From: a virus
DNA length: 64,000 nt
IMG/VR virus record: IMGVR_UViG_3300005253_000946
Reading direction: 5' to 3' (one strand)
Under the pieces are notes generated by a model. That model worked only from the letters and a program-made list of their open reading frames with translations, had not been told where the DNA came from and searched no databases. Below, in pieces: positions 37,935 through 59,202 of the stretch (its first letter is position 1; every line of letters begins with the position of its first letter). The position numbers and the translations under genes were made by a program.

Positions 37935-38831
37935 ATGGTGAGTCTAGTATCTACTTCTACTACTTCTTCGTTACACAACGATAGTGACAACCTCAAGTCT
38001 ATTGGCGAGAAAGCCAAGGATATTGCTATAGCTACTGGCGCTGCTTTGAATGATTCAATCATCCAAGCTGTGGGTGACACAAAACTGAATCCACAAGAGC
38101 TGCGTAGGGTAATTGAGAGCGCAAATAAATCTACTTTCTCTCATATGTTTAGTGCAGAGGCGGATAAAACGTTTGAGTTCCCTCTAGCTTCATTCGATGG
38201 TGTGAACGGTGCATTAGAGAAAAATTTAAAAGCACCAGGGGTTAAGCCTTTAGAGGCCTCTCCTTCTAAAGACCGTCCCTGGACTCCATCAGCTGAAAAG
38301 GATGATAAAGATATGGAGATGTTATTTTCTGGTGTAGGTAAAGATGACGGTAATAAGACGGTAGAATATGAGAAGACAGCTTCAGCAAGAACAGCCTCTG
38401 TTACATTGAGTGATTTAAATAGAGCAGAGAATCTACTCGACAACAAAGTTCGTGAAGTAGATAATTACTACTATGATGCTGTAGAGGATTTCTATAAAGA
38501 AGCTAAATCTCATATCCTGGACCATAATGGCTCAGTGTTTGACGTAGCCGCAGCAATGAACTCAGTGGACCCTTCTGTAGCTAAAGAATACTTTCCTATA
38601 GTTTTATCTAAGCTTGCTTCAAACAAAGTCATCAGGAAAGATAAGCTTATTAAAGAAGCTGGGTCTGTAGAAGATGATTTCATCTTACAGGAAGTTAATC
38701 CAGAACACCCTCTGGTTATGAAGTTTAACTCTTTAGTTAAACTGGCATACTCAAAATTATTTTTTATGAACTCTAAGCGTCAAATTAAGGACGCTAAAAC
38801 TTATGTGTTAGATAGAATACGTGGGTTATGA
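37935..38831 (+). CDS. putative head/core protein with K-x-A motifs
   Basis: KTASA, KEAK, KLAS, KEAG, KLAY; first gene of the head cluster. Confidence 0.55.
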   Translation: MVSLVSTSTTSSLHNDSDNLKSIGEKAKDIAIATGAALNDSIIQAVGDTKLNPQELRRVIESANKSTFSHMFSAEADKTFEFPLASFDGVNGALEKNLKAPGVKPLEASPSKDRPWTPSAEKDDKDMEMLFSGVGKDDGNKTVEYEKTASARTASVTLSDLNRAENLLDNKVREVDNYYYDAVEDFYKEAKSHILDHNGSVFDVAAAMNSVDPSVAKEYFPIVLSKLASNKVIRKDKLIKEAGSVEDDFILQEVNPEHPLVMKFNSLVKLAYSKLFFMNSKRQIKDAKTYVLDRIRGL

Positions 38832-39181
38832 ATCAAGCGATGTTAGAAGGGTTCTGTGATGAACTTATTAAAGAGTCTGGCTTAGCTGTTTGGGGTGCCA
38901 AGAAAGCTATAGGGATAGGATCTAAACTTCTTAAGGGTGTTGGTAAAGTTACTGGTGGAACTACTAGGGCAGTTACTGGCGCTCCTAAAAATATAGGTAA
39001 AGAAATGCTTAAAGATCCTGCCCGAGTTCTTAAACGTATGGGTAAACGTACTATGGGTGTAGGCATGGGAGGGTTGATAGGGATGGAAGGAATATCGGCA
39101 GCTCAAAAGGCTGGAAGAACTATTAAATCAGGGGCCAGGTATAGTGCCCCTCAACCGACTACGATCAGGAGATATCGATAA
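38828..39181 (+). CDS. leader-tagged small cationic Gly-rich protein
   Basis: MNQAMLEGFCDELIKES leader, then a K/R/G-rich core containing GVGMGGLIGMEG. Confidence 0.65.
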   Translation: MNQAMLEGFCDELIKESGLAVWGAKKAIGIGSKLLKGVGKVTGGTTRAVTGAPKNIGKEMLKDPARVLKRMGKRTMGVGMGGLIGMEGISAAQKAGRTIKSGARYSAPQPTTIRRYR

Positions 39182-39837
39182 TGCCAAAGATACCAACAGG
39201 TGGAGCATTTTCTAGGTTCTGGCAAGGATTTAAATCAGGCCCGAAAGCTGAAGTGGTTGGAACCGCCGCAGCACAAACGATGGCGACTATGCCAGCAGCT
39301 ATTATTGGTAGCATTCTCGGTGGTGGAGTTGTTGTTAGTGGCCAAGTTGCTGCCGAAAGTATTGGAGGAGCAATCCAAAAATCTAGATCCTATAAAGCTA
39401 TGCTCAATCATTCACCGGAGTTAGCTAAAAAGGTGAATCGTGATAAAGTCGAGAAGTATTTTAATTCTATTTGGAATTTTAATCCTCAAGTAGCTAGAGA
39501 CCCTATTGCATCTTCAGCTGCAGTAAAAAGGATGTTAGGTGTCCATGACGAAGAGCATCTAGAATTACTTACCGGTATGGGTAAGATGTATCAAGAGCCT
39601 AAACCATTTATGCATCCTGGGACACAGGCTATAATGTCCGGTACTTTAAGTGCGGGACTCGGAGCTTTTGTACCTAAATATAAAGACCTTCATCCAGCAC
39701 CAACAGGTGTGAGGAGACCAGAAAATTTTCCAGAAGATGCTACTCAGGTAAATCAGACTCGTCCTGGAGGTATGACTAAATCAGCTTCGGCACGAACTAG
39801 CTTCCTGTGCAACGTAGGTAAAGCTTTTAATGGATAA
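39181..39837 (+). CDS. hypothetical virion protein with Gly-rich hydrophobic segments
   Basis: AAIIGSILGGGVVVSG, ends KSASA; coupled to the protease gene. Confidence 0.6.
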   Translation: MPKIPTGGAFSRFWQGFKSGPKAEVVGTAAAQTMATMPAAIIGSILGGGVVVSGQVAAESIGGAIQKSRSYKAMLNHSPELAKKVNRDKVEKYFNSIWNFNPQVARDPIASSAAVKRMLGVHDEEHLELLTGMGKMYQEPKPFMHPGTQAIMSGTLSAGLGAFVPKYKDLHPAPTGVRRPENFPEDATQVNQTRPGGMTKSASARTSFLCNVGKAFNG

Positions 39838-41536
39838 ACGCCTCTTCTTCCCTTCTCGGATAGATGAGGAGGGAATGTATCAGTTATTTGTTACTGAGGT
39901 AGTGAACCCTGGAGATTTTTCTAAAGTTGCTACTGAATACGATCCTAAGATAGCTGCTTTAATTAAAGGTATTGTACCATCTCCAAGCTACACCTATGTT
40001 TTAGTAAATGCTTTAGGCGCTAGTGAGTTTTGGGGTTCGAATGTAAACGGGGATTCATTTCCTGAGAGAGGACTGGGTCACGAAGGTAATGGTTATGGAT
40101 ATAAAACATTCGAGTTATACGCTCGTCCATTCCCTCATCACCGTAACAAATCTGATGAGTTCGCTTTCGGAAAAGTTATGGCTTCTGTGTACAATACTCG
40201 TATGCATAGGGTCGAACTATTGCTGCAACTTGATGTTAAAAGGGCTAGGATTGTCGGTGCTGGTTATGTCATCAATAGGATACTTAAAGGAGAACTACCA
40301 GATGTCTCAATGGGCGCTAGAGTACCGTTTGATGTCTGCTCCATTTGCGGCCCCCCAATTGAGACTTTATGGGAATTACCAGTACAAGAAATCCTCAGAA
40401 GAGCTTACTTACCAAACAATAACCCACAAAAGTTCAACGGTATCGCCAAGCGATTCTCAGATTACTGCGAACACTTAAAAGGGTGTATAGGTAAGATATG
40501 GCACGACGGTAGAATTGTTACTGCTGTCAATATGTACCCGAAGTTTTTTGATATAAGTTTCGTCTTTATTGGTGCAGACTCTACTGCAAAAGTGTTACGA
40601 AAAGTAGCTACTGCAGGTCAACCTTTCTTTATGCCATCTGCTATGTTAGCTGAGCAGTTTGGTGTGTATAAAGGTCAAGAAAAGAGAGCAAACATCGGTA
40701 AAGTTGCTGAACTTATTAAAGATATTCCAGCTAAAGATGTACAAGTAATTAGGGGTACTTTGTCAAAAATGGACTCACTAACTTGTTGTGAGCCTGACAT
40801 AAATAAGAACACTCTTGACAATTTAAGTTCACAATTTCCTTTAAAGACTATTTTAGATTCTCTTGGGTACGGTGGTGTTCTAGTTAAACCTAGAGAGTTT
40901 CAAAGAATGGTGCTTGTTTCTAAAGGATATAAGGACGTTGCAGATGTTATGGATAGTAATAACGTTTGCTTTGATCCTCCAGCTAGAGATGAGTTACCCG
41001 CACCTACAAACAGTTCTTTAATACCTTCTTTTGATTCCTCTATTTTAGAATCCATTAAACAATTATTACCTCAAAGATCATTTTTTGGTCCAGCTTTAAA
41101 TAAGCGTGTGGTTGTTTTAAATATAAAGAAGGTAGCTCCTCCTTTAACTAAAACCGCATCATCAGATGTTCCGGACCAGTATAAACATATACTGGACGGA
41201 TTCTCTAAGATGTACGCCCAATACAGGTCGGACCTTATAAAGGTGGCGCATCTAGAGAGTATATCTAGACGCAACCCTTACTTGTTGGGTGCATTGGGTG
41301 TAGAGACTTCAGACGAACTTTGGAAGTTAGCTGCAGTAGGAGTTGACGCAAAAAAGGTTCCGTGGCAGGCTTTACTTGCTATTGTTCCTTTAACATATTT
41401 ATATGCTGCTCATTTAAAGAGAGCAGGTATTAAGAATAACGAGGAATTAAACGTGATACAGAAGTTTATTACTAACAATCCAAGTTTTACGTCAGCTACA
41501 TTATTTAATGTGAGCAAGGCGGCATTGAGGATTTAG
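39830..41536 (+). CDS. putative prohead maturation protease (HK97/assemblin fold) with C-terminal extension
   Basis: SNVNGDSF, PFPHHRNK (candidate His), HRVELL, DVSMGARVPFDVCSICG (candidate Ser), FFDISFV..GAD; lies upstream of scaffold-like genes and the capsid gene. Confidence 0.6.
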   Translation: MDKRLFFPSRIDEEGMYQLFVTEVVNPGDFSKVATEYDPKIAALIKGIVPSPSYTYVLVNALGASEFWGSNVNGDSFPERGLGHEGNGYGYKTFELYARPFPHHRNKSDEFAFGKVMASVYNTRMHRVELLLQLDVKRARIVGAGYVINRILKGELPDVSMGARVPFDVCSICGPPIETLWELPVQEILRRAYLPNNNPQKFNGIAKRFSDYCEHLKGCIGKIWHDGRIVTAVNMYPKFFDISFVFIGADSTAKVLRKVATAGQPFFMPSAMLAEQFGVYKGQEKRANIGKVAELIKDIPAKDVQVIRGTLSKMDSLTCCEPDINKNTLDNLSSQFPLKTILDSLGYGGVLVKPREFQRMVLVSKGYKDVADVMDSNNVCFDPPARDELPAPTNSSLIPSFDSSILESIKQLLPQRSFFGPALNKRVVVLNIKKVAPPLTKTASSDVPDQYKHILDGFSKMYAQYRSDLIKVAHLESISRRNPYLLGALGVETSDELWKLAAVGVDAKKVPWQALLAIVPLTYLYAAHLKRAGIKNNEELNVIQKFITNNPSFTSATLFNVSKAALRI

Positions 41537-41629
41537 TAATGAGTGTGTATCATGTGGATAGTTGTAAAGATTTGGCCTACACCCCTGGCCTTAAAAAACC
41601 AAACACAAGTTTTGTAGGAGAATAAAACA

Positions 41630-42382: not shown

Positions 42383-42391
42383 GATAAATAA

Positions 42392-42440: not shown

Positions 42441-43031
42441 ATGACTGAGCATGAATTAATAGGCTTCACTAAAGAAGCAGTACGCGGCCGGGTGCTAGAT
42501 ACTCCTGGTATGCGTGAGCGTGCGTTTCAGTTAGGAGAAGCTAGATCAGGTGGTCCCAGTAACTGGAGAGGTAGAAGAGCTACTAGAAAGCTTACTAAGG
42601 GCATCGAAAAAGATATCGGAGCTACTCAGAAGTCAGTAGCGTCTACGTATAGATCCGATATAAGAAAATTAAAGGCTCAACAAAGAGCCTCTAAAAATCT
42701 TGTACAGGTAGCTAATTTAGGGAAACAAATTAGAGAAAGATCTGTACAGCACCAAAAAAACCTGTCTGATGTAAGTAAGCAGTTTCATACAACTAAAGGT
42801 ACTTTTACAGGAAGAACTAAAATTCTCGATGTAACACCTGAACATAGAGTGAAACCGGGATCGGCAGCAGCTGGTGGTGCTGGTCGTGTTAAGCAAAAAT
42901 TAAAGTCTCTAGGGGTCAAAGGATTGATCGCTGGAGGTCTAGGTTTAGGAGCTTATTACGGAGGTAAGAAGTTACTAGGCAGTTCCAAGCAACCTAACTA
43001 CGGTGGTGGTAGAGCACCTACCTACTATTAA
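42441..43031 (+). CDS. leader-tagged cationic protein with C-terminal Gly zipper
   Basis: MTEHELIGFTKEA leader; R/K-rich; GVKGLIAGGLGLGAYYGG. Confidence 0.65.
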   Translation: MTEHELIGFTKEAVRGRVLDTPGMRERAFQLGEARSGGPSNWRGRRATRKLTKGIEKDIGATQKSVASTYRSDIRKLKAQQRASKNLVQVANLGKQIRERSVQHQKNLSDVSKQFHTTKGTFTGRTKILDVTPEHRVKPGSAAAGGAGRVKQKLKSLGVKGLIAGGLGLGAYYGGKKLLGSSKQPNYGGGRAPTYY

Positions 43032-43047
43032 GAGAGGAATTCGAACA

Positions 43048-43854
43048 ATGGGCTCATCTTTATTAGAAATTGTGAAAGCTACTTTGGAGCCAGACAGCTT
43101 CGAAAAGATAGCTACTACAATAAAAACACAATCTACAACTCCTGGAGTCTCTACTATAGAGAAGGTTGCGTCTGCTTTAGATTTTCTGGCTGATAACCTT
43201 AATATGGTTGAGAGAGCTGACGAAGTTGGAGCTGCTCTTTCTAAGGTAGCTATGGATGCTCCTGTCCCACCTACTAATAAAGGTGAGGCTGTTAGCCAAT
43301 TGGATACCAATAAAGCAGGTACCCAAGGTGAGCAACCTGGTAACAAACCTAAACCGCAAGCTACTACAGCTGTCGATGACACAGGTGTTGTAGAAGATAA
43401 CGAGAAAAAGAAAGCCGATAGTGCTACGGTTACTGTCAAGCAGGCTTCAGCCTACTCAGGCAACTCTACAACTCACGATCAAACAGCTCCTGTATCATCA
43501 GGCGTAGCTGGTTCACCTACTCAGAAGTCTAGCGAACAAGTAAGTGCTGTAGCTCCCGAGCCGTCAATTACTGACGGTCCACCGGCCTTTTTAAGTGAAG
43601 AAGAGCCTGTAGCAGATAAAACAAAGCCAAAAGATAAAGCTACTAAGAGCTTAGCCAGTAGTGCAGCAGTAGCCAGCACTGGCAAAAAAGTCAACGATGC
43701 CCAAGTTAAGTCTCAGATGGCCGGAATTTTAAAAGAACCGGCAGTTGGAGTACACGGGGATTCGGTTGTAAAAGCCAATCTTGGTACTATGAAAACAGCA
43801 GCCCAGCGCGTAGTCGAAAAAATCGACACAATGCGTGCTGGAGGACAACTATAA
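43048..43854 (+). CDS. low-complexity scaffold/core-like protein
   Basis: Start moved to MGSSLL at 43048 (GAGG RBS); EKIA, EKVAS, KVA, KQAS, KTAA. Confidence 0.55.
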   Translation: MGSSLLEIVKATLEPDSFEKIATTIKTQSTTPGVSTIEKVASALDFLADNLNMVERADEVGAALSKVAMDAPVPPTNKGEAVSQLDTNKAGTQGEQPGNKPKPQATTAVDDTGVVEDNEKKKADSATVTVKQASAYSGNSTTHDQTAPVSSGVAGSPTQKSSEQVSAVAPEPSITDGPPAFLSEEEPVADKTKPKDKATKSLASSAAVASTGKKVNDAQVKSQMAGILKEPAVGVHGDSVVKANLGTMKTAAQRVVEKIDTMRAGGQL

Positions 43855-43917
43855 TATAAGCTTCCTACACCATTAGGAACCCACAGGTTTTAGTCCACAA
43901 AGGATTTGGAGAAAACG

Positions 43918-44277
43918 ATGAAAAAGATCAGTTCGCAGAAAGCTTCAGCCCTACTGAAAGAAGCCGCTTCAACTATGCGTACTCTGTCAGCAGAGAACGT
44001 AGAGTTACGTGCCAAGCTGACGGACCACGAAAGTGTGGACCGTTTGTCTAAGCTGGCATCAAGCATGGTATCTAGAGGTTTGGCTGGAACACACGAAGAT
44101 GCTGTAGATGCATTAAAAGAGTCGCTCGATAAGGGTTCCTCAATAGATGTTCTAGAGCAGTCAGTCGAACTGCGTCCGGAGTTCACACCTCTAGGACAAA
44201 TTTCTTCGTTCTCCAAAGAGGCTAGTTCTGCTGGTGCCGAAGAGCCTGATGCTCTAACGGCGTTTTTAGTCTCGTAA
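43918..44277 (+). CDS. coiled-coil scaffold-like protein
   Basis: MKKISSQKASALLKEAAS...KLAS...KEASSA; GGAG RBS at 43918. Confidence 0.55.
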   Translation: MKKISSQKASALLKEAASTMRTLSAENVELRAKLTDHESVDRLSKLASSMVSRGLAGTHEDAVDALKESLDKGSSIDVLEQSVELRPEFTPLGQISSFSKEASSAGAEEPDALTAFLVS

Positions 44278-44860: not shown

Positions 44861-45907
44861 ATGGAACTAAATGCTTCCCAGTTAAATGATCTGTTCATGC
44901 AAAAGCTGGACAGTGAGGATTCTCGTGAAAAGCTTGCCGCTGCTACGACATCGTATGTGCGCGACAAACTACGCGAGTCAGCATTTAACCGAAAGGTTAT
45001 TAACCCCCAAACGGTTACTAAAGACGATTGCCAAGTGTCTGTTAATCACGACACACTGGTTAAAATCGTTGAGATCGAGCCGAACAGTAAAGCGATGGCC
45101 ATCACCTTCCGAGGTGAAGCCGATTCGCGCTTCATCAGCGCCCCGCGTGTTGAATGCCCGTTTTTCTCCATCTCCTCGGAGAAATTCGAGAAAACTGAGC
45201 AAGAGCTTCTGGCGTACCAGATGCCTCTTACAAAGGTAATCGAAGAAAACACTGTTAAAGACATTGAAGAAATTGAAGACTTCTACTTCCTCAATTATAT
45301 TGAGGCAGCAGTCCGAAACTACACCAATCCTTTAACAGCTGCCAACAACATCTTTAAGCCAGCCCGTACATCATCGCTAGGTACAACTGAGTTGACACCT
45401 AACGTGAAGGCTGACTTCATCGAATGTAAGAAACTTTTGTCAGGTAGTCGTCGCCGTGCGCAACGCATCCTGATGACAGAGCCTGATTTCGATGATATCA
45501 CCGGTTATACCATTACGGATTTCGGTGACAAGATCGCGTCGGAAGTCATCGTAGATGGCTACAAGTACAACCTATTCCTGGGCATGGAGCTTATCCGTAC
45601 AATCAAGACTGACATCTTGAAACAGGGTAATATCTACTTCTTCACCCAGGAAGAGTTTCTCGGTAAGAGTTACGTCCTGAACAACACCAAGTTCTATATC
45701 GACAAAGTCGGTAATCTTATTACTTGGTGGGCATGGGAAGATATTGGCATGATCATCGTTAATGTAGCTTCGATCTCTAAGATGGAGCTTTACAAAGGCG
45801 ATCCGACTCTTGCTGGTAACCGTCCTGCAGTCGGTCTTGCTCTTGAAGATGAACTGGGTGGTACTTACGTTGAGCCTGATCAGGTTCAGCCGCTGGTCAC
45901 CTTTTAA
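44861..45907 (+). CDS. major capsid protein (HK97 fold)
   Basis: 348 aa; follows protease, scaffold and decoration genes; AAGGAG RBS and a terminator downstream; N-terminal REKLAAATTSYVRDKLRE. Confidence 0.75.
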   Translation: MELNASQLNDLFMQKLDSEDSREKLAAATTSYVRDKLRESAFNRKVINPQTVTKDDCQVSVNHDTLVKIVEIEPNSKAMAITFRGEADSRFISAPRVECPFFSISSEKFEKTEQELLAYQMPLTKVIEENTVKDIEEIEDFYFLNYIEAAVRNYTNPLTAANNIFKPARTSSLGTTELTPNVKADFIECKKLLSGSRRRAQRILMTEPDFDDITGYTITDFGDKIASEVIVDGYKYNLFLGMELIRTIKTDILKQGNIYFFTQEEFLGKSYVLNNTKFYIDKVGNLITWWAWEDIGMIIVNVASISKMELYKGDPTLAGNRPAVGLALEDELGGTYVEPDQVQPLVTF

Positions 45908-52525: not shown

Positions 52526-52542
52526 TTAAGGAGACTTTGCAC

Positions 52543-55062
52543 ATGCCTGGTCAAATAAGACAACCCGGAGTTGAGATCATACAGGAATTTGTTTCTGCAT
52601 CTCCTAGCTTCAGCATTCCCTCTTTACTGTCGTGCTCCGTAGGACCGGCTTTTAGGATAGTTAAGGCTTTTACGCCAGAAGGTGCGGTCGACGCAGACTC
52701 GATTGCCGGAGCCTATCCAGATACACGTGATGTAGGAGCTGGCGGATATAGCGGCCAGTCCTCTGGTGTAGCTAGTACTCCAACTACCCATTTAGTTGAT
52801 ACTACTCAATCATGGGTTGACGACGAGCTTAACGGTAAGTATGTCTTCATCTGGTCAGGTACCGGTGCAGGACAATTACGTGAAATCCTTGATACAGACA
52901 ACGCGCTTCAGGAAATCGAAGTCAGTGTAGCTTGGGATGTTACTTTAGACGCTACCAGTAAGTATTATATTGGTGACGGAATCGAAGTAGGTTTCCCGAA
53001 GTTTATAGACACAGACAAGATTGAGCACACCGATATCACAGATCCGTTAAACCCGATCAAGGTATATATACAACTTGGTGGGACAGTTGCCGAGGTACCG
53101 AACTATCAGTACGTGTTAAATCCTACGAACGATGGGATTATTATAGGTCCTGGCGCAGGTAACGTTAACTTCCCGGTTATAGGTACGATTCTTGTTGAGT
53201 GGCTTGGCCTTAGAACCGACATTTCTGAAACATTAGTGGTCGCTGAAAACCTAGAAGACCTAGATAATTTTCTTGGACCAATTTCTGTAGAGAATCCCTT
53301 AGCTTGGGGTATGGCACAACAATTATCTAATTCCCAGACCAATGCTGTAGCAGGTTTAGGTGTTAATGATATTGATCCGATCAACGAGCCTGATGGAACT
53401 GTGGCATCTTACCAAGAAGCTTTAGATGCTTTAGAGAGTGAAGACGTTTACGCTATCTCAACTCTAACTCACGCTTTAAGTGTGCATCAATCGTTGTCTA
53501 GCCACGTAACTGCTTTATCGGCATCAACCGAAAAGAAAGAGCGTATTGGGTTTGTCAATCCACTGTTTCCTACTAATGCTGCAGATCAGATATTGGTACA
53601 GGATAATTATTTCTTCTCAGCAAGTTCTGGAAATCCGTTAGACATATACTCCAACGTAGATTTCTTGTCATCCTTAGCGTTGTTAGGTGTTAATCCGGTT
53701 GACGATCTTGCAAACATAGTTGTTACTTTTGAGAGTGAGTTACATGCTGTAGAGCACCCACTTACTGAAATCAAAGTTAATAGCCTTGTAGGAGACGATA
53801 CTTTACCTGGTCCTTTACCTCCGTTAGCCTCTTTCGGTAGAGTAGCGGAAGTAGTAGGAGATTCTTCAGCGGCGTTAACCGATCCGGTATTTAATGGGGC
53901 AGTATCCGTGGCATCACCCAATAATAATGGGTTGGTTGATAATACCGATACTTTTGAGCCTAATCAGTTTAAAGGATTAACGTTAATTAAAGACCCTACT
54001 GGAGTTGGAAGTGGTACAGAAACTTTTCTAATTACTTCCAATACAGACCATGAAATTTTTGTAGTATCTGACTGGCTTGCTAATCCAGTAGTTGGCGACC
54101 TTTACGAGATTTCAGGTTTCGAACTGCTTCTACAAGATGACGGTATTAACCCGATAGCTTTAGAAGGAGACTATGTTGACGCTATCGAACCTTATTGGGT
54201 CTACATAATGGCTGGCGGAGCAGCAGCAGGTCAATTTAGAAAAATCATAGGCAGTTCCTCTTCGGCTTCCAGCTTTGCTAATACGTTACTGCTCGAACTT
54301 CCCTGGACTATTGTTCCTGATGCAGAACCTTACGAGATTTGGCAGGGTACTGAAGCGTCACTAGAAGAATTCAAACTAGTCCTTAAAGGCGATCTACTGG
54401 TAATTAATGGTTTCCCGAACAAAGCTTTAATGGCTACTACCATTGCAGGGTTCGGTGAAGCGTATAAAAACCGTAGATTATTTGTAGTTATTCCTGACCA
54501 AGTAGAGCAGAGCGTAGCTGGTGTAACCTCTCTAGTAGAAGGCTACTACCTAGCTTCAGCTATTTGTGGCATGGTTGGGCAACTACCTCCTCAACAAGGC
54601 TTTACCAACTATCCTGTTACAGGGTTCTTGGGAGTCAATAACAAGACTTCTGGCTTTTTCTCAACTAGCCAGTTGGACACGATAGCTGGAGGCGGAGTCT
54701 ATACGGTAATTCAAAATGCCCAAGGACAGCCTCTAATTTGCCGTCATCAGTTATCTACAGATGTCAGCGTAATCGAAAAGCGTGAGCTTTCGATCACGAA
54801 GGTTGTGGATTACACAGCTAAGTTCCTTCGGAACCTGTTAGTGCCGTACATCGGCCTCTTTAACATTAACCAAGGATTCTTAGACAACCTGAGTACGATT
54901 GTTCAAGGCGCTTTAAGATCGTTAGTTGATGCAAACATCTTGAATGGTGCTGATCTTAATATCATCGCGCAAGATGAAGATTCACCTGACACCGTGATAA
55001 TCGACGTAACTTTGGATGTTCCGTTCCCAGCGAACTACATCCGGCTAACTCTACTAATTTAA
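52543..55062 (+). CDS. contractile tail sheath protein
   Basis: RQPGVEIIQE N-terminus; C-terminal YLASAICG..GQLPPQQGFTN, RHQLSTD..RELSITKVVD, PFPANYI; ATG 52543 has an AAGGAG RBS. Confidence 0.88.
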   Translation: MPGQIRQPGVEIIQEFVSASPSFSIPSLLSCSVGPAFRIVKAFTPEGAVDADSIAGAYPDTRDVGAGGYSGQSSGVASTPTTHLVDTTQSWVDDELNGKYVFIWSGTGAGQLREILDTDNALQEIEVSVAWDVTLDATSKYYIGDGIEVGFPKFIDTDKIEHTDITDPLNPIKVYIQLGGTVAEVPNYQYVLNPTNDGIIIGPGAGNVNFPVIGTILVEWLGLRTDISETLVVAENLEDLDNFLGPISVENPLAWGMAQQLSNSQTNAVAGLGVNDIDPINEPDGTVASYQEALDALESEDVYAISTLTHALSVHQSLSSHVTALSASTEKKERIGFVNPLFPTNAADQILVQDNYFFSASSGNPLDIYSNVDFLSSLALLGVNPVDDLANIVVTFESELHAVEHPLTEIKVNSLVGDDTLPGPLPPLASFGRVAEVVGDSSAALTDPVFNGAVSVASPNNNGLVDNTDTFEPNQFKGLTLIKDPTGVGSGTETFLITSNTDHEIFVVSDWLANPVVGDLYEISGFELLLQDDGINPIALEGDYVDAIEPYWVYIMAGGAAAGQFRKIIGSSSSASSFANTLLLELPWTIVPDAEPYEIWQGTEASLEEFKLVLKGDLLVINGFPNKALMATTIAGFGEAYKNRRLFVVIPDQVEQSVAGVTSLVEGYYLASAICGMVGQLPPQQGFTNYPVTGFLGVNNKTSGFFSTSQLDTIAGGGVYTVIQNAQGQPLICRHQLSTDVSVIEKRELSITKVVDYTAKFLRNLLVPYIGLFNINQGFLDNLSTIVQGALRSLVDANILNGADLNIIAQDEDSPDTVIIDVTLDVPFPANYIRLTLLI

Positions 55063-55073
55063 GGAGTAGATAA

Positions 55074-55772
55074 ATGGGCACAATTAGCCAATGGGATCAA
55101 TACGATAAGTATGTGCAGGGAGGCTTGCAAGACGGCCTCTTTATGTCGGGCGCGTTTACGCTTATCGCTGCTGGACCCCCTCGTCTATCTAACTTAGCCG
55201 GTGAATTAGTAGTAGGTACTTTGATCCAGGCTGGCGGCGCAGCAGTTGATACAGTAGCGTACCCGATTGGTGTGGTTCAGAACCTGAACATCAGCCATAA
55301 CAGGCAGTTCACTCGTTTATTCGAGATAGGTTCAGAACGCTCCTACTTTATTTCTGGTCGAACCATCGGTCAGATTTCGTTAGGTAGGGTTTTATACCAC
55401 GGACCTTCACTGCTACGCGCTCTCTATGCATACTACCAAGACCTCCTACCCCCAGGAATTGTACCTTCCTTGTGGCAAAACGTAGGTTCAGCCTTCGTAC
55501 ACCATGATGTGAAGATACCTCCAGGGTATGAGAACCTCTTCATAAATTTAGCTTCCGATATGTTCTCGCAACCTATGGGTCTGCTAGTTTATGTTAAGGA
55601 CTCTGATGAACGTACAGTAGGTGCAGTCTACTTCGAACAGTGCTACGTCCCGAATCATACCTTCGCTACTGACGCGCAAGGTGTTCTGATTCAGGAAAGT
55701 TGTGCTATACAGTTCGAAAGAGCAATACCTGTAGCCACCAGCGAAGTAGCTCTGATATCTGGCCTACTGTAG
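55074..55772 (+). CDS. tail tube protein
   Basis: Follows the sheath; IGVVQNLNISHNRQFTRLFEIGSERSYF. Confidence 0.75.
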   Translation: MGTISQWDQYDKYVQGGLQDGLFMSGAFTLIAAGPPRLSNLAGELVVGTLIQAGGAAVDTVAYPIGVVQNLNISHNRQFTRLFEIGSERSYFISGRTIGQISLGRVLYHGPSLLRALYAYYQDLLPPGIVPSLWQNVGSAFVHHDVKIPPGYENLFINLASDMFSQPMGLLVYVKDSDERTVGAVYFEQCYVPNHTFATDAQGVLIQESCAIQFERAIPVATSEVALISGLL

Positions 55773-55794
55773 TCAGATAAAGCCTTTCGAGAAT

Positions 55795-55832
55795 AGAGGG
55801 GATGCGGTAATATGTTTATTGTATCCCCTTTC
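55795..55832 (+). terminator. hairpin after the tube gene
   Basis: agaggggatgcggtaa-tatgt-ttattgtatccccttt; all mismatches are G-U pairs, followed by a T tract. Confidence 0.6.
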
Positions 55833-55846
55833 TTAATGGATGACAT

Positions 55847-56314
55847 ATGTACGACGGCCTGACAACAGAAGAACTACATGGGCTTGCTGACTACCTCTTA
55901 AAGGAGGCATCAGCGGCCCCTAAGTTGCTTACAGCCGGTACTAAAACCATTCCCCCATCTATCTTGAAAAAGGTCGTAGATAAGGTGAAACGTTATGGTA
56001 CGTTGATGGCTGGTGGTAAGAAGTTTACAGGCTCTGTGACTGGTCAGACAGGTAAGACACGCTTCAGATCCGCTAGTGTGAAAAACCTTCGAGCTACGTC
56101 AGCTCTTAGTAAGTTGCGAAAGCAGCAGAATTTTGGCAGGGCACCTAGAGGTATATTAGGCAGGTTACTGGGAGGTGTTAAACCTGTAGGTAAACTTAAG
56201 AAAGAAATAGATGCTGTAAACCTTGCTAGGGGTGCGACAGCTGCAGGCGGTGTAGGTACTGCTGGTGCAACATACGTCCTCACTAGAAAATCTAAGCCGA
56301 AAAGGAATCGTTAA
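55847..56314 (+). CDS. leader-tagged cationic protein (ADYLLKEA type)
   Basis: EELHGLADYLLKEAS leader; K/R-rich; C-terminal GATAAGGVGTAG. Confidence 0.7.
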   Translation: MYDGLTTEELHGLADYLLKEASAAPKLLTAGTKTIPPSILKKVVDKVKRYGTLMAGGKKFTGSVTGQTGKTRFRSASVKNLRATSALSKLRKQQNFGRAPRGILGRLLGGVKPVGKLKKEIDAVNLARGATAAGGVGTAGATYVLTRKSKPKRNR

Positions 56315-56315
56315 A

Positions 56316-56720
56316 ATGAGTACACCAACTACTTTAGAGTTACATGAAATAGCTGACTACTTACTGAAAGAGGCCAGGAAGAGTAAACGCTCTTATGGTT
56401 CTGAAGCTGGTATAGGCGCTCTTGCTGGTGGTGTAGCTGTAGGTGGTGGTGCAGCTGCTGCTAAAGGTTATGGGATGTACGGCGCATCTCGAGAAGCACT
56501 AAGAGTTCGTCTACAAGCAAAAGTTTCTGGTGTACCAAGTCGTAGGTTATCTACTAAAGCCCGAACTGTTAAACAGGTTATCAAGAAGCTTGGACCTAAA
56601 GCTTTATTAGCTACTGGAGCTATCGGTGGAGCAGGAGCTTTACTTGGTGCAGGCGGTGGTTTAACCAGACATAAACTGCGTAAATCTATGAAGAAGAACG
56701 CTGCGAAGAAAAGTAAGTAA
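56316..56720 (+). CDS. leader-tagged cationic Gly-zipper protein (ADYLLKEA type)
   Basis: Start MSTPTT at 56316; LELHEIADYLLKEA; two Gly-zipper segments. Confidence 0.7.
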   Translation: MSTPTTLELHEIADYLLKEARKSKRSYGSEAGIGALAGGVAVGGGAAAAKGYGMYGASREALRVRLQAKVSGVPSRRLSTKARTVKQVIKKLGPKALLATGAIGGAGALLGAGGGLTRHKLRKSMKKNAAKKSK

Positions 56721-57327
56721 TGCCCTTCAAGTCTAAAGCTCAGCGCAGAGGTACATGTTTGCACAACACCCTAAGATAGCTAGACGATGGGCAGACGAGC
56801 AGAAGAAGAGTAAAGGTAGAAAAAGCTTCAAAACCATGCCTGATAAATTACATACCGATAAGAGTGTAAAACCTTCTGAGTTTAAGAAGCAGGCTCAAGC
56901 AGAGATTACTATAGGTATGATCAAAGCAGCTGCTTTTAGGGAAGAACTTGAAAAGATAGCCATCATAAGTTTAAGTCCTTTTGATTTTAATATACCTCAT
57001 GCGGCCATAGCTTTATCGGGAGCCGCTAATGTTGGAAAGAAAGCTTCAGGACTAGCGGCTCATGCTGCCAGCAAAAAAGGACACAAGATTAAAAATGAGG
57101 AGTTAGCTAAACTTCTAGGCGGAACGACTGGGCTGCTTGGTGGTATTGGTGGTATGATTCTCGGACTGAAGTACAGACCTCAATTACAAAAAATATTAAG
57201 TAAATTAACCAAAAACAAAACAGCTATGTTAGCTTCTAGACCAGCTATCCCTATGGCCTCTACTGTTTTAGGTGGAGCAGTTGCAGGAGCTGGTACTGGA
57301 GTCTTAGTAAGCGTTCGTGGAAAATAA
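56720..57327 (+). CDS. cationic Gly-zipper protein with internal leader; apparent frameshift near the 5' end
   Basis: TAATG-coupled MPFKSKAQRR (56720) continues as YMFAQHPK only after a frame change at about 56749; internal AAAFREELEKIA. Confidence 0.6.
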
Positions 57328-57339
57328 GGAGATTAAACA

Positions 57340-58119
57340 ATGAATGCAAATATCGATAGAGAAGAATTGCTTGGAATGGCCGATTTCCTTTTAAAGGAAG
57401 CTAAGGACAAGAAGACATACCCTTTTTCAAGGGCAGCCACTGATCCAGCATTTCAGGGTGCTGGTGTAACCGGTTTAGGTTTAGGAATTACAGGAGCAGT
57501 AGCACATGGTGCTAAGAAGATAGTCAAGACTAGAAAAGGATTGCAAGCTATGGCACGATTGGGCCAAGAACTCGGTCTTGCTGGTAGCCGTAAAGCTGCT
57601 GTTCGTGGAGCGTCTAAATTACCTAAGAAGCTTTTAATAGGTGGAGCAGTTGCTTCTGGTCTTGCTGGTCTTGGCGCAGCTGGAGTGACATCACTAAGTC
57701 GGCGTCAGCAGATGAGAGGTTTAGCTGGTAGAAAAGCTCGTGGAGGCAAAGGCATGACTGCCAGAGAGCGTAAGCTTACTGGTATCAAGAAAAGTGCCTC
57801 TCTCATTAAAGAAGCTTTACCTATCGGACAGCGCCTACCTAAAAAAGAGCAGATCAAAAAAATGATTACTGCTTACAAAGATATTGTTAAAGGCAAGAAC
57901 GTAGCATCAGCTAAGCGGACAAAGAAGATGTGGTCTGGAGCACAATCTAGGCGTGCAAAATGGAATATAGCTAATCCTAAAAAATCTGGATTACGTCCCG
58001 AACAGAAGGCTTTTCATAAGGCGAAGAGCAGAGTCTCTAATGCTCAATTAGAGAGAGCGGTTGCTATCGGCGTACCTGCATTAGGTGTTGGTGGCTTGAG
58101 CGCTGCAGCTCTTAAATAA
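57340..58119 (+). CDS. leader-tagged cationic protein with two leader/core units
   Basis: EELLGMADFLLKEA and a later SASLIKEA; Gly-zipper segments. Confidence 0.7.
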   Translation: MNANIDREELLGMADFLLKEAKDKKTYPFSRAATDPAFQGAGVTGLGLGITGAVAHGAKKIVKTRKGLQAMARLGQELGLAGSRKAAVRGASKLPKKLLIGGAVASGLAGLGAAGVTSLSRRQQMRGLAGRKARGGKGMTARERKLTGIKKSASLIKEALPIGQRLPKKEQIKKMITAYKDIVKGKNVASAKRTKKMWSGAQSRRAKWNIANPKKSGLRPEQKAFHKAKSRVSNAQLERAVAIGVPALGVGGLSAAALK

Positions 58120-58131
58120 GGTGTTAATCTC

Positions 58132-58392
58132 ATGGACCAAGTAGAAGCATTAGTTGTTAGTCAGGTTGTTGAGTCAGCATTCCATTCTGAACTCAACAAA
58201 CTGGCTGCTAGGAAAGCCAGATTAGGTTCTGGTGTCAGATTCAAGTCCTTGCAGAAGAATATTGCTAAAAGCATTAAACCAAGAGCAGGACAGACTAAGC
58301 AACAAGCTGCCGGTGCAGTAGCTGCAGCTATCGGCCGTAAAAAGTACGGTAAGAAGAAATTTCAAGCATTCAGTATGAAGGGCAGACGGTAA
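58132..58392 (+). CDS. leader-tagged polycationic peptide
   Basis: ESAFHSELNKLA leader; 61-aa core with 19 K/R and no D/E. Confidence 0.7.
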   Translation: MDQVEALVVSQVVESAFHSELNKLAARKARLGSGVRFKSLQKNIAKSIKPRAGQTKQQAAGAVAAAIGRKKYGKKKFQAFSMKGRR

Positions 58393-58393
58393 G

Positions 58394-58981
58394 ATGGGTA
58401 ACCACGTACACATAACTTCAGGTTGTGGTGATGAAATCATCAAACTGGCCGCTCATGGTGGTCCTACGACCGGAGAGCAGTTGCATCGATCTCTGATGGA
58501 TCAGAGAGCTATGCTTAGACGTGCTGGTTATAAAAAGAATCTGTCAGGTCAAGAGATTATAGCCAGAAATAAATGGCTACGTTCTGCAGTAAGGCAGGGC
58601 TCAACACTTAACAAGTCAGAGCTAGCGACTATTTCTGACCCGACTATTAGCCGATATACAAGTAGGGGTGCTGGTAAGGGTATTTTAGCAGGCGGTGGCT
58701 TAGGTGCGGGACTTGGAGCTGGAGCAGCTGCCTTACTAAAGAAGAATCCAAAGGCTGCACTCTTAGGAGGATTAGCTGGAGGTGTTTTAGGTATGTTACC
58801 GGGTGGCATTATAGGCAGCCAAATTGGTAAAGCTAAAGGTAGGAAAAGAGCTGGCGAGAAGATTAAACGCACACAAGAGTTATTAGGTGGGTACCAGAAA
58901 TTTATCAACAACCCGCAGATACAAAGAGAGATCTTGTCTGGTAAACTTATGATCCCTGTAATAGGTGTCCCTAGAGGCTGA
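58394..58981 (+). CDS. leader-tagged Gly-zipper membrane protein
   Basis: GCGDEIIKLA leader; GILAGGGLGAGLGAGAAA...GGLAGGVLGMLPGGIIG. Confidence 0.7.
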   Translation: MGNHVHITSGCGDEIIKLAAHGGPTTGEQLHRSLMDQRAMLRRAGYKKNLSGQEIIARNKWLRSAVRQGSTLNKSELATISDPTISRYTSRGAGKGILAGGGLGAGLGAGAAALLKKNPKAALLGGLAGGVLGMLPGGIIGSQIGKAKGRKRAGEKIKRTQELLGGYQKFINNPQIQREILSGKLMIPVIGVPRG

Positions 58982-59202
58982 TGTTATATGTACTCACACC
59001 TTGTATAGATGAACTCAGGAAGCTGGGATCTACACTTATGGCTACAGCTCCGAAGGTGATTAAGCTTCCTCCGTTATCTGCAGTCCATGAAGGCCCTAAG
59101 ATGAAGCCTAACAGTAAGAGGATTCAAAATGCTGCATCCTCATATACTACCTTAGCCAAAGACAACAAGATGCAGAAGTTGATGGCCCCCAAAATAAAAT
59201 AA
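58981..59202 (+). CDS. leader-tagged small basic protein
   Basis: PCIDELRKLG leader; coupled by TGATG. Confidence 0.55.
   Translation: MLYVLTPCIDELRKLGSTLMATAPKVIKLPPLSAVHEGPKMKPNSKRIQNAASSYTTLAKDNKMQKLMAPKIK

What the first reader, a model, noticed from the sequence alone, without database searches (positions are those of the whole stretch)
38828..59202. Leader-tagged cargo family: about 14 genes with a shared acidic K-x-A leader and unrelated cationic Gly-zipper cores
Seen, leader type A: GFCDELIKES (38828), GYEITKLA (47545), SFKSELEKLA (48799), SFRNELEKLA (49564), AFGNELKKLA (49959), SFKDELTKLA (51391), AFREELEKIA (internal, about 56935), AFHSELNKLA (58132), CGDEIIKLA (58394), CIDELRKLG (58981). 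Type B: LHGLADYLLKEA (55847), LHEIADYLLKEA (56316), LLGMADFLLKEA (57340), and the shorter ELIGFTKEA (42441). The leaders are acidic or neutral. The cores are dissimilar, very K/R-rich (58132: 19 K/R and no D/E in 61 aa) and mostly carry GxxxG helices. Known: T4 internal proteins use a short N-terminal capsid-targeting sequence removed by the prohead protease, and the variable IPI locus supplies injected anti-restriction proteins. Inference: a modular addressing system in which the leader docks cargo into the prohead, cleavage after K-x-A releases polycationic peptides, and these condense DNA, form a membrane channel during ejection, or act as injected effectors.
Basis: partly seen in the sequence, partly recalled or inferred. 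Interest (0 to 1): 0.88.

Follow-up and report, generated by a model that had tools for sequence, protein, structure and literature searches.

The report
Cleavable K-x-A leaders on phage cargo
In an uncultured ~200-kb contractile-tailed phage, 14 small, very basic, glycine-rich proteins start with a short acidic peptide ending in Lys-x-Ala, the motif that also marks the capsid, scaffold and head-protease proteins. They are therefore most likely loaded into the capsid and trimmed by the phage's herpes/T4-like head protease, a new cleavage-code version of phage T4's capsid-targeting tag, but no experiment has shown this yet.

Summary
All 14 ORFs exist. Each carries a short leader ending in K-x-(A/S/G), acidic in 13 of 14. 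The cores have pI 10.1-12.0 and mostly 9-24% Gly, and share no detectable similarity.

The motif is not private to these genes. Hydrophobic-x-K-x-A occurs 54 times in the head/structural block against 9.4 expected. It is absent from sheath, tube and terminase. It sits at three telling places:
- the MCP N-terminus, conserved in relatives and in cultured phages Arash and Vibrio D69;
- the end of the protease catalytic domain (K-L-A|S in many of the 150 best of 3,899 matching cluster representatives);
- up to nine times in acidic scaffold-like proteins.

The 568-aa protease model has the herpes assemblin / T4 gp21 fold. Relatives (MCP 50-56% identical) put the same leader on unrelated proteins: 105 proteins fall into 53 clusters. 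Synonymous sites in the leaders look randomised, so selection acts on the peptide.

Best reading: K-x-A is the prohead-protease cleavage code, and the leaders are cleavable propeptides or address tags on head-packaged cationic cargo. This is a new variant of the T4 CTS / phiKZ-SPN3US scheme with an assemblin-like Ala-Ser specificity. Cleavage, packaging and cargo function are all untested.

Other notes of this scan describe the same leader or K-x-A code in other genomes (e1-5678571, e1-5742009, e1-5747932).

The parts
38828..39181 (+). Cargo gene 1 (117 aa). Leader aa 1-17 (nt 38828-38878) ends K-E-S. Core 100 aa, pI 11.8, 19% Gly.
42441..43031 (+). Cargo gene 2 (196 aa). Short leader aa 1-13 ends K-E-A. 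Core pI 11.2. Lies in a syntenic slot between scaffold-like genes, where relatives carry a ~100-aa leader protein.
47545..48417 (+). Cargo gene 3 (290 aa). Leader aa 1-17 ends K-L-A. The core has H-E-x-x-H at nt 47989-48003 and two hydrophobic segments. The Atlas model resembles Zn_peptidase_2 / M48 membrane metallopeptidases (TM about 0.5).
48799..49179 (+). Cargo gene 4 (126 aa). Leader aa 1-25 ends K-L-A. Core pI 11.5.
49564..49947 (+). Cargo gene 5 (127 aa). Leader aa 1-24 ends K-L-A. Core pI 10.7, 24% Gly.
49959..50567 (+). Cargo gene 6 (202 aa). Leader aa 1-27 ends K-L-A. Core pI 10.6, two hydrophobic segments.
51391..51771 (+). Cargo gene 7 (126 aa). Leader aa 1-25 ends K-L-A. The only cargo with a detectable homologue in the related loci (L014). 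Syntenic slot between two conserved neck/tail genes.
55847..56314 (+). Cargo gene 8 (155 aa). 'Type B' leader aa 1-21 ends K-E-A. Core pI 12.0. First gene of a post-tube cluster that is absent from complete relatives G004 and G005.
56316..56720 (+). Cargo gene 9 (134 aa from the ATG at 56316). Leader aa 1-20 ends K-E-A. Core pI 11.9, 18% Gly.
56755..57327 (+). Cargo gene 10 (190 aa). The motif is internal (P1 = aa 69, nt 56959-56961). The basic N-terminal part is conserved in G005. The part after the site has pI 10.7 and two hydrophobic Gly-rich segments.
57340..58119 (+). Cargo gene 11 (259 aa). Leader aa 1-21 ends K-E-A, with a second site at aa 159. Core pI 11.8, 53 K/R.
58132..58392 (+). 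Cargo gene 12 (86 aa). Leader aa 1-25 ends K-L-A. Core 61 aa with 19 K/R and no D/E.
58394..58981 (+). Cargo gene 13 (195 aa). Leader aa 1-19 ends K-L-A. The core has 15 G-x-x-x-G, with weak likeness to glycine-zipper families.
58981..59202 (+). Cargo gene 14 (73 aa). Leader aa 1-16 ends K-L-G. Core pI 10.4, only 2% Gly. The weakest member.
39830..41536 (+). Prohead protease, 568 aa. Catalytic domain about aa 35-260, with invariant H103/H104, S160 (D-V-S-M-G) and D241. K-x-A sites at aa 34 and 260 flank the domain. A further conserved site at aa 501 precedes a hydrophobic C-terminal tail.
44861..45907 (+). Major capsid protein (348 aa). K-L-A ends at about aa 26-27. The aligned position reads E-K-I-A in nearly all relatives, V-K-E-A in Arash and T-K-E-A in Vibrio phage D69.
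41630..42382 (+). Acidic scaffold-like protein (250 aa, pI 4.2) with 6 motif sites. Two of them are positionally conserved in 34 homologues.
43003..44277 (+). Two further multi-site head proteins: 43003-43854 (4 sites) and 43906-44277 (3 sites, one conserved in 33 homologues).
49199..49540 (+). Acidic 113-aa protein (pI 4.1) with 3 sites, lying between cargo genes.
37935..38831 (+). Conserved head-module protein (298 aa) with 5 sites. Three K-x-A islands are conserved in 33 homologues while the flanks are not.
30285..32330 (+). 681-aa protein with 9 sites, one at aa 21. The G004 homologue also has 9.
17353..18447 (+). 364-aa acidic protein with 6 sites, including a 'type B'-like site at aa 143.
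52537..55772 (+). Tail sheath (841 aa) and tube (232 aa). Internal negative controls with no motif site.

Best explanation
K-x-A is the cleavage code of this phage's prohead (head-maturation) serine protease. The extended form is acidic-acidic-hydrophobic-x-Lys-x-Ala, cut after the Ala and often before Ser or Ala. The protease has the herpes assemblin / T4 gp21 fold.

The 14 genes encode precursors of head-internal proteins. Each has a short N-terminal peptide, acidic in 13 of 14, ending in the code. It is followed by a strongly cationic, Gly/Ala-rich mature part.

Proposed sequence of events:
1. Precursors co-assemble with the acidic scaffold-like proteins and the protease in the prohead core. 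The leader serves as the handle, and charge complementarity may help.
2. The activated protease frees itself at the sites flanking its catalytic domain and ahead of its tail. It trims the capsid protein's first ~27 residues, dices the acidic multi-site proteins into small peptides that leave, and clips the leaders.
3. The cationic cores stay with the DNA. They act as counter-ions and are ejected with the DNA. The cores with glycine-zipper hydrophobic helices and the Zn-peptidase-like one are candidates to act at the host membrane.

Shown here: motif statistics, placement and conservation; the protease fold; leader conservation with core turnover.
Inferred: cleavage itself (about 0.8), packaging and trimming of the 14 cargos (about 0.6), any role after release (about 0.3).
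For: - Enrichment: 54 sites against 9.4 expected in the structural block, and none in excess elsewhere. L-x-K, K-x-A and E-x-L emerge from an unbiased pair scan of head genes only.
- Placement in the capsid protein: the MCP N-terminus carries the site, conserved over 46 relatives, in Arash and in Vibrio phage D69.
- Placement in the protease: K32-x-A34 and K258-x-A260 are nearly invariant at the two ends of the catalytic domain. With a strict anchor, 72 of the 150 best representatives show K-[LI]-(A/G), P1' mostly Ser, and many others show close variants. 135 of 150 have an N-terminal site. 3,899 representatives match in all. A conserved K-[TLV]-A site precedes the C-terminal tail.
- Placement elsewhere: acidic proteins carry 3-9 sites, whereas sheath, tube, terminase and the 627-aa protein at 19341 carry none.
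- K-x-A islands are conserved in otherwise diverged stretches of three head-protein families.
- Protease identity: PHROG head maturation protease, E 5.6e-5. The model has pLDDT 75. Its best structural matches are VZV protease (Z 8.8) and T4 gp21 (Z 8.3), with the next at Z 6.0. The best Foldseek rows are mostly herpesvirus proteases.
- Leader conserved, cores not: 63 leader ORFs in relatives, all on the gene strand. 105 unique proteins fall into 53 clusters, 43 of them singletons, with mostly basic cores. 13 of the window's 14 cargos have no homologue in loci whose MCP is 50-56% identical.
- Third codon positions of the leaders are 33-36% identical, against 61-83% at positions 1 and 2. Selection therefore acts on the peptide.
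- The tag is portable. In relative G005 it precedes a protein with Ser/Thr-kinase likeness (PDB StkP E 1.7e-4, Pfam Pkinase E 0.008). In G004 an SNF2 helicase has an N-terminal K-I-A site. D69 has a 151-aa basic protein (pI 10.6) with a 12-residue leader.
- Precedent: T4 and SPN3US prohead proteases remove N-terminal propeptides from many head and ejection proteins (PMC10052503; PMC9026906).
Against: - There is no experimental datum. The Arash virion proteome gives only coverage percentages, with no peptide list in the supplement. Its MCP coverage of 86.6% neither confirms nor excludes loss of 29 residues.
- Several cargo genes lie among neck and tail genes, and seven follow the tube gene, where tail chaperone and tape-measure genes usually sit.
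- Seven cores have predicted hydrophobic segments and one looks like a membrane metallopeptidase. That is awkward for soluble packaging inside a prohead.
- Arash shares the code in its head genes but lacks the leader-tagged basic family. Complete relatives G004 and G005 lack the post-tube cluster. The expansion is therefore lineage-specific and its importance is unknown.
- 58981 and 42441 are weak members.
- The fold match of the protease is moderate (Z 8-9; Foldseek E at best 0.03).
Confidence: 0.6

Rival explanations
1. K-x-A is the protease cut site, but the leader is not an address. The cationic cores would enter the prohead simply by binding the abundant acidic scaffold-like proteins. The N-terminal peptide would be only a removable acidic cap that keeps the polycation inert (off DNA, RNA and membranes) until maturation, as with adenovirus core-protein precursors.
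For: - Internal sites of scaffold-like proteins share the same extended context as the leaders (acidic, hydrophobic at P5), so nothing in the leader is demonstrably extra to the cut site.
- The charge split is strong. Multi-site proteins have pI 4.1-5.8 and cargos pI 10-12.
- Adenovirus core precursors are trimmed by the viral protease (PMC4246237, abstract seen).
Against: - Leaders conserve an aromatic residue at P9 and a helical F/L/I face beyond the minimal site.
- In relatives the same leader sits on proteins with enzyme-like domains; the two leader-tagged proteins measured in G005 have basic cores too (pI 9.8 and 10.6). Sequence analysis cannot separate this from the main reading.
Confidence: 0.15
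2. The motif is an uncleaved docking helix. It would be a short amphipathic helix that binds the capsid protein, portal or scaffold, is shared by scaffold-like proteins and cargo, and stays on the mature proteins.
For: - The motif is helix-compatible, with hydrophobic positions at i, i+4 and i+7.
- Another first-stage note (e1-5829065) saw the same likeness to scaffold helices.
- The P1 DarB capsid-targeting signal has no described cleavage motif (PMC9024508).
Against: - A binding helix would not be expected exactly at both borders of the protease catalytic domain, before its tail and at the capsid protein N-terminus.
- It would also not be expected to recur up to nine times in one protein.
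- A small P1 with Ser or Ala at P1' is typical of assemblin-type cleavage sites (own knowledge).
Confidence: 0.08
3. The 14 genes are not head proteins. They would be a diverged paralogous family of late membrane or tail-lumen proteins (holin- or exclusion-like, or tape-measure/chaperone substitutes) that keep an ancestral N-terminus. The likeness to head-protein sites would be partial coincidence.
For: - Seven genes sit directly after the tube gene.
- The basic, Gly-rich, weakly hydrophobic make-up recalls membrane-active proteins.
- There is glycine-zipper and Zn-peptidase membrane-protein likeness.
- Syntenic slots suggest descent with fast divergence.
Against: - The same leader occurs on proteins scattered over the genomes of relatives, including ones with enzyme-like domains.
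- Seven cores have no hydrophobic segment.
- Sheath, tube and the conserved neck/tail proteins carry no site at all.
- The leader ends in the very motif conserved at the MCP and protease processing positions.
Confidence: 0.1
4. They are leader-bearing secreted peptides of the bacteriocin or RiPP kind: an acidic helical leader, a cut after a small residue, and a cationic G-x-x-x-G core.
For: There is a formal likeness of the leader (hydrophobic, E-L, small residues at the cut) and of the cationic Gly-rich cores to double-glycine-leader bacteriocins (own knowledge, not tested).
Against: - No match to any Pfam family, and so to no C39-peptidase/ABC-exporter or modification-enzyme family, in the 28 window proteins scanned. 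The rest of the window was not scanned with Pfam.
- The cores are 57-273 aa.
- The genes lie inside a virion module.
- The motif is shared with the capsid, scaffold and protease proteins.
Confidence: 0.01

Closest known systems
Phage T4 capsid-targeting sequence (CTS) on internal proteins IPI-III and Alt, removed by prohead protease gp21
   Same: - A short N-terminal tag ends in the cleavage motif of a gp21-fold prohead protease.
- The same motif is used in the capsid protein, scaffold and the protease itself.
- The mature internal proteins are basic and travel with the DNA.
- The cargo set is variable.
(PMC9026906, PMC10052503 and PMC9024508 as read; fold match to 5JBL, Z 8.3.)
   Different: - The code is K-x-A (cut after a small residue), not (L/I)-x-E.
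- There is no sequence similarity to the T4 CTS or to the IPs.
- There are 14 cargos in one 20-kb stretch rather than 3-4.
- The cores are Gly/Ala-rich with hydrophobic zipper segments.
- The protease carries a ~300-aa C-terminal extension.
- Nothing has been shown experimentally.
phiKZ-like giant phages (phiKZ gp175, SPN3US gp245): A-x-E processing of many head, inner-body and ejection proteins
   Same: Many head proteins are processed at one motif. The cuts are mostly N-terminal propeptides, with multiple motifs inside propeptides. The phage is large and has its own RNA polymerase (PMC10052503; window RNAP gene at 21608-27913).
   Different: - A different motif and P1 residue (Ala instead of Glu).
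- No detectable homology of the cargos.
- Leaders here are short (13-27 aa) and share a recognisable consensus across unrelated proteins.
Herpesvirus assemblin (UL26-type protease-scaffold fusion) with Ala|Ser release and maturation sites
   Same: - Best structural match of the protease model: VZV protease Z 8.8, with most of the best Foldseek rows being herpes proteases.
- Cut after Ala, often before Ser.
- One site lies exactly at the end of the catalytic domain, like the R site. Another lies shortly before a C-terminal tail, like the M site.
- The protease is fused to a long C-terminal part, 526-2031 aa in relatives.
   Different: - Lys at P3 and a hydrophobic residue at P5 are required here. 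The assemblin consensus is (V/L/I)-x-A|S (own knowledge).
- Herpesviruses have no family of leader-tagged cargo.
- The catalytic triad could not be assigned here beyond Ser160 and His103/104.
Phage P1 DarB N-terminal capsid-targeting signal
   Same: An N-terminal ~30 residues suffice to send a protein, including a reporter, into the capsid for delivery with the DNA (PMC9024508).
   Different: No shared consensus among the P1 Dar proteins, and no link of the signal to the protease motif is described. The P1 MCP is cut after Glu120.
Adenovirus core-protein precursors (pVII, pre-mu) trimmed by the adenovirus protease
   Same: Very basic DNA-condensing proteins are made as precursors and trimmed by the virion maturation protease at a short consensus motif (PMC4246237 abstract; details from own knowledge).
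   Different: An unrelated cysteine protease, virus lineage and motif. This is an analogy only.

Membership tests
T4-type CTS / prohead-protease-processed internal proteins (functional class) | The genome encodes a prohead protease of the gp21 / assemblin fold | tested here: met
   PHROG head maturation protease, E 5.6e-5. The model matches 1VZV at Z 8.8 and T4 gp21 5JBL at Z 8.3, with the next match at Z 6.0. His103/104 and Ser160 are invariant.
T4-type CTS / prohead-protease-processed internal proteins (functional class) | The tag ends in the same short motif that marks the capsid protein, scaffold and protease processing positions | tested here: met
   K-x-A lies at the MCP N-terminus, at the protease domain borders and in multi-site acidic proteins. 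All 14 leaders end in K-x-(A/S/G).
T4-type CTS / prohead-protease-processed internal proteins (functional class) | The tag is shared by otherwise unrelated proteins (portable) | tested here: met
   No core pair gives blastp E below 0.2. 105 leader proteins fall into 53 clusters. Leader-tagged proteins in relatives include a kinase-like and a helicase protein.
T4-type CTS / prohead-protease-processed internal proteins (functional class) | Proteins are found in the capsid and are cleaved at the motif | not testable with these tools
   No virion N-terminal data exist for this clade. The Arash proteome lists coverage only.
T4 CTS / IP family (homology) | (L/I)-x-E cleavage motif and sequence similarity to the T4 CTS or IPs | tested here: not met
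   The motif here is K-x-A. The cargos match no PHROG at E up to 0.01 (10 of 14 scanned) and no Pfam family above its cut-off, best E 0.01.
phiKZ/SPN3US-type processing | (S/A/G)-x-E cleavage motif | tested here: not met
   P1 is Ala, Gly or Ser. A-x-E does not appear among the top eight enriched residue pairs.
Herpesvirus assemblin (peptidase S21) | Assemblin fold | tested here: met
   1VZV matches at Z 8.8, rmsd 3.5 over 125 residues. Most of the best Foldseek rows are herpes proteases, but with E at best 0.03.
Herpesvirus assemblin (peptidase S21) | Ser-His-His catalytic triad | tested here: inconclusive
   Ser160 and His103/His104 are invariant and His84 nearly so. Spatial arrangement could not be inspected.
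Herpesvirus assemblin (peptidase S21) | Self-release at Ala|Ser sites at the end of the catalytic domain and near the C-terminus | tested here: inconclusive
   Conserved K-L-A|S lies at the domain end and K-[TLV]-A before the tail. Cleavage has not been shown.
Glycine-zipper membrane proteins (Pfam Gly-zipper families) | Significant match to a Gly-zipper Pfam model | tested here: not met
   Only 58394 gives a weak match: PF05433, E 0.01, 16 bits against a cut-off of 24. The Atlas structure likeness covers 60 residues. G-x-x-x-G counts are high, but composition alone may explain that.
Zn_peptidase_2 / M48 membrane metallopeptidases (for 47545-48417) | H-E-x-x-H plus the family fold | tested here: inconclusive
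   H-E-V-G-H is at aa 149. The Atlas model has TM 0.49-0.55 to Zn_peptidase_2 clusters. There is no Pfam hit at E up to 1.

The most novel reading that the evidence does not exclude
A large, uncultured clade of ~150-210-kb phages uses a portable, clip-off K-x-A leader as a general address tag. The protease family has 3,899 matching cluster representatives. The tag would load a fast-turning arsenal into the capsid: polycationic glycine-zipper peptides that open or condition the host membrane during DNA entry, plus enzymes such as a membrane Zn-peptidase and, in relatives, a protein kinase. The processing protease would work with herpesvirus-like Ala|Ser specificity and a UL26-like protease-scaffold layout, making it a functional bridge between phage and herpesvirus capsid maturation.
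Probability: 0.3. Interest if true: 0.8.

Novelty: new variant of a known kind. Interest (0 to 1): 0.6.

Why it matters
If true, it adds a third, independent 'code' for head maturation and cargo loading in large phages, next to T4 (L/I-x-E) and phiKZ (A-x-E). This one has the Ala|Ser preference and the protease-scaffold layout of herpesvirus assemblin.

It would allow head-packaged, probably injected, proteins to be predicted from sequence alone across thousands of uncultured phages. It points to a class of very basic glycine-zipper proteins whose role in DNA packing or membrane passage is unknown. It also offers a short tag for loading foreign proteins into capsids.

Two cultured relatives carry the same code: Vibrio phage D69, which also has a leader-tagged basic protein, and Salmonella phage Arash. 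The idea is therefore directly testable.

Tried and rejected
- Complex prediction (protease domain with the 58132 precursor) was not available, so there is no docking test.
- No whole genome is held for the window. Genome-wide distribution was therefore checked in complete relatives G004 and G005, and in Arash, instead.
- Megablast of the region against phage records found nothing. Only Arash and three Vibrio phages share the MCP, at 27-30% identity.
- Pfam and PHROGs gave no family for the cargos scanned.
- The pattern search with the tube protein in viral contigs found nothing. It was replaced by the genome search on handles.
- The leader profile against 5.8e9 proteins gave only 27 hits. All are unnamed or 'hypothetical' (one is from an uncultured Caudovirales phage record), and many lie on large contigs. 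Only 8000 candidates were scored, so the true spread of the leader is unknown.
- The Arash paper and its supplement hold no peptide-level data.
- The PARP/Tpt1-like hint for the G005 258-aa leader protein stayed weak (Pfam E 0.03, nothing in the PDB search, only 2 homologues). It is not used as evidence.
- Recent DNA-level duplication or shuffling of a leader cassette is rejected. Third codon positions are near random and core DNA is about 28% identical.
- A separate 'type B' leader class is rejected in favour of one extended motif.
- Literature searches found no description of a K-x-A prohead-protease motif. The library is incomplete, so this is weak evidence of absence.

Full report
**Context**

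The window is the structural and replication region of a large uncultured myovirus. The + strand block 17353-59202 holds:
- a terminase (PHROG E 1e-61);
- a 568-aa head maturation protease, the major capsid protein and a tail sheath;
- a tube protein, 56-64% identical to those of relatives;
- a 2101-aa RNA polymerase-like ORF.

Megablast finds no phage record. The MCP is 50-56% identical to 80 IMG/VR loci, several on 190-210-kb contigs, two of them with terminal repeats. It is only 27-30% identical to Salmonella phage Arash and three Vibrio phages. No whole genome is held for the window.

**Observation**

All 14 ORFs are there. Thirteen of the 14 leaders have pI 4.1-5.9; the 69-residue N-terminal part of 56755 is basic (pI 10.1). 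All end in K-x-(A/S/G), 13-27 residues from the start. 56755 is the exception here too: the site is at residue 69, and its conserved basic N-terminal part also occurs in relative G005.

Cores have pI 10.1-12.0 and 9-24% Gly, against 6% in the other proteins (58981 is the exception at 2%). Eleven have G-x-x-x-G and seven have a moderately hydrophobic 19-mer. No pair is similar at blastp E below 0.2. Pfam and PHROGs give no family. The start of the ninth gene is best placed at 56316.

**The motif is a head-module code, not a private leader**

- [LIVMFYT]-x-K-[LIVME]-A occurs 54 times in the structural block against 9.4 +/- 3.1 in shuffles. The rest of the window has 3 against 4.7.
- Among all 1200 residue pairs at gaps 0-2, L-x-K, K-x-A and E-x-L rank 2nd, 3rd and 6th in the head block. 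They do not stand out elsewhere. K-x-A or L-x-K stands out likewise in the head blocks of complete relatives G004 and G005.
- The site profile is: acidic at P7/P6; Leu, Phe, Ile or Met at P5; Lys at P3; Glu, Leu, Val, Thr or Ile at P2; Ala at P1; Ser or Ala at P1'.
- Acidic proteins carry many sites: 41630 has 6, 30285 has 9, 17353 has 6, 37935 has 5, and 43003, 43906 and 49199 have 3-4 each. Sheath, tube, terminase, the conserved neck/tail proteins and the 627-aa protein at 19341 have none.
- The cargos have a single strict site at the N-terminus, with three exceptions: 57340 has two, and 38828 and 58981 end in K-E-S and K-L-G and so are missed by the strict pattern.

**Placement at expected processing positions**

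- The MCP N-terminus reads E-K-L-A at about residue 26-27. The aligned position is G-K-E-K-I-A in nearly all relatives, V-K-E-A in Arash and T-K-E-A in Vibrio phage D69.
- In an alignment of 23 proteases, K32-x-A34 and K258-x-A260 are nearly invariant. The second follows the last conserved strand of the catalytic domain, and Ser follows it.
- Of the 150 best cluster representatives of this protease family (3,899 at E up to 0.001), 72 pass a strict anchor. These show K-[LI]-(A 59 / G 12) with Ser the commonest next residue. Many of the rest show close variants. 135 of 150 have an N-terminal site.
- A further conserved K-[TLV]-A site precedes the hydrophobic C-terminal tail.
- In three poorly conserved head-protein families, K-x-A triplets stand out as conserved islands.

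**The protease**

The N-terminal 300 residues fold with mean pLDDT 75. An exhaustive structural comparison puts VZV protease (Z 8.8) and T4 gp21 (Z 8.3) on top, with the next at 6.0. The best Foldseek rows are mostly herpesvirus proteases, though at E 0.03 or worse. His103/His104 and Ser160 (in D-V-S-M-G) are invariant.

The layout is catalytic domain, cut site, long variable C-terminal part (526-2031 aa in relatives), cut site, tail. This recalls the herpes UL26 protease-scaffold fusion with its release and maturation sites. That comparison rests on my own knowledge of assemblin.

**Leader conservation with core turnover**

- In the related loci the leader regex hits 63 ORFs on the gene strand and none on the other. 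The consensus is small-F-x-D-E-L-x-K-I-(A/G), a few residues from the start.
- 105 unique leader proteins of the clade fall into 53 clusters, 43 of them singletons, with mostly basic cores.
- Thirteen of the window's 14 cargos have no homologue in loci whose MCP is over 50% identical. Some occupy syntenic slots, after the acidic scaffold-like gene and between the two conserved neck genes, so rapid divergence is likely.
- Third codon positions of the leaders are 33-36% identical, against 61-83% at the other two positions. The core DNA is about 28% identical. The peptide, not a recently copied DNA cassette, is what is kept.
- Complete relatives have fewer tagged genes, scattered over the genome, and no post-tube cluster. 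The seven genes at 55847-59202 are therefore a lineage-specific expansion.

**Portability**

- In G005 the leader precedes a 302-aa protein with Ser/Thr-kinase likeness (PDB StkP E 1.7e-4, Pfam E 0.008).
- In G004 an SNF2 helicase has an N-terminal K-I-A site.
- The window's 47545 protein has H-E-V-G-H. Its Atlas model resembles Zn_peptidase_2 / M48 membrane peptidases at TM about 0.5.
- Vibrio phage D69 has a 151-aa protein (pI 10.6) with a 12-residue leader ending K-I-A, lying among neck genes. It also has head proteins with 6-8 sites.
- Arash has the sites clustered in gp220, gp222, gp223, gp225, the MCP and gp242, but no leader-tagged basic family.

**Interpretation**

The simplest account is a T4-like scheme with a new code. 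Precursors join the prohead core. The protease cuts after K-x-A, releases itself, trims the capsid protein, destroys the acidic core proteins and clips the leaders. The cationic cores stay with the DNA.

That the leader also targets cargo, and what the cores do afterwards, is inference. It rests on T4 (CTS, basic internal proteins), SPN3US (N-terminal propeptides on ejection proteins; PMC10052503), P1 DarB (PMC9024508) and adenovirus core precursors.

My odds:
- cleavage code: about 0.8;
- the 14 proteins being packaged and trimmed: about 0.6;
- a membrane or DNA-condensing role: about 0.3.

The rivals are a cut site without addressing, an uncleaved docking helix, non-head membrane or tail-lumen paralogues, and secreted peptides. 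They are weighed in their own sections.

**Limits**

No experimental datum exists. The leader profile search scored only 8000 candidates. Literature searches found no K-x-A prohead-protease motif, but the library is incomplete.

**Earlier notes of this scan**

Notes on this genome saw the K-x-A|S/A code (e1-5829068), the Zn-peptidase cargo (e1-5829066), the second leader class (e1-5829069) and the scaffold-helix likeness (e1-5829065). In other genomes, follow-up agents reported the same 15-residue leader on cationic glycine-zipper cargo (e1-5678571) and K-x-A / K-R-A codes (e1-5742009, e1-5747932). These agree with my reading but are not independent evidence.

**Verdict**

The feature is real and statistically solid. 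It is a new variant of a known kind: prohead-protease propeptides or capsid-targeting tags, here with an assemblin-like cleavage code, an unusually large cationic cargo set and cultured relatives in which to test it. Interest 0.6.

Noticed in passing
window 21608-27913 (+): A single 2101-aa ORF, homologous across relatives (G004 2118 aa, G005 2087 aa), lies between the 627-aa protein at 19341 and further head-block genes. Other first-stage notes read it as a fused beta-beta' RNA polymerase. In Arash the corresponding genes are annotated as RNAP subunits and are the most abundant virion proteins in its proteome (PMC10585845).
   Followed up: no
window 47545-48417 (+): A leader-tagged 290-aa protein with H-E-V-G-H (nt 47989-48003). 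Its Atlas model resembles Zn_peptidase_2 / HtpX-type membrane metallopeptidases (TM about 0.5). Look-alike clusters of 70-145 members are mostly viral.
   Followed up: partly
L105:17718-18626 and L105:16377-17153 (relative G005): Two adjacent leader-tagged proteins outside the structural block. One has Ser/Thr-kinase likeness (StkP E 1.7e-4). The other has a weak PARP/Tpt1-like N-terminal hint (E 0.03-0.05) that could not be confirmed.
   Followed up: partly
protease homologues in L002-L081 and P0030-P0179: The protease length ranges from 526 to 2031 aa. The conserved catalytic domain and C-terminal tail are separated by very variable inserts. In some representatives the profile match is split into 2-4 stretches or starts about 450 residues in, suggesting inserted or prefixed domains (inteins or fused scaffold/cargo?).
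   Followed up: no
window 56755-56961 and G005 79450-80121: The basic N-terminal part of the 56755 protein, ahead of its internal K-I-A site, is conserved in a distant relative (motif K-S-K-A-Q-Q-R-F-M-F-A ... R-W-A). This is the only cargo part other than the leaders that is conserved so far.
   Followed up: no
window 45970-47012 (+): Directly after the MCP gene come two proteins with no homologue in the related loci. The first is 157 aa with an extremely Lys-rich C-terminal half. The second is 189 aa with a long Glu/Val-rich acidic stretch. They are possibly decoration or charge-paired head proteins.
   Followed up: no
L112:14750-18457 and 32508-33359 (Vibrio phage D69): This cultured phage shows the same K-x-A saturation: 8, 2, 2 and 6 sites in four consecutive head genes, and 6 in a distal gene homologous in pattern to Arash gp242. 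The 269-aa acidic protein has a thrice-repeated F-E-x-A-x-E-(L/M)-V-K-E-A unit.
   Followed up: partly
window 50567-51394 (+): A conserved 275-aa neck-region protein with a C-x-x-C ... C-x-x-C zinc-ribbon-like motif and weak PHROG 'virion structural protein' hits. It has no K-x-A site.
   Followed up: no
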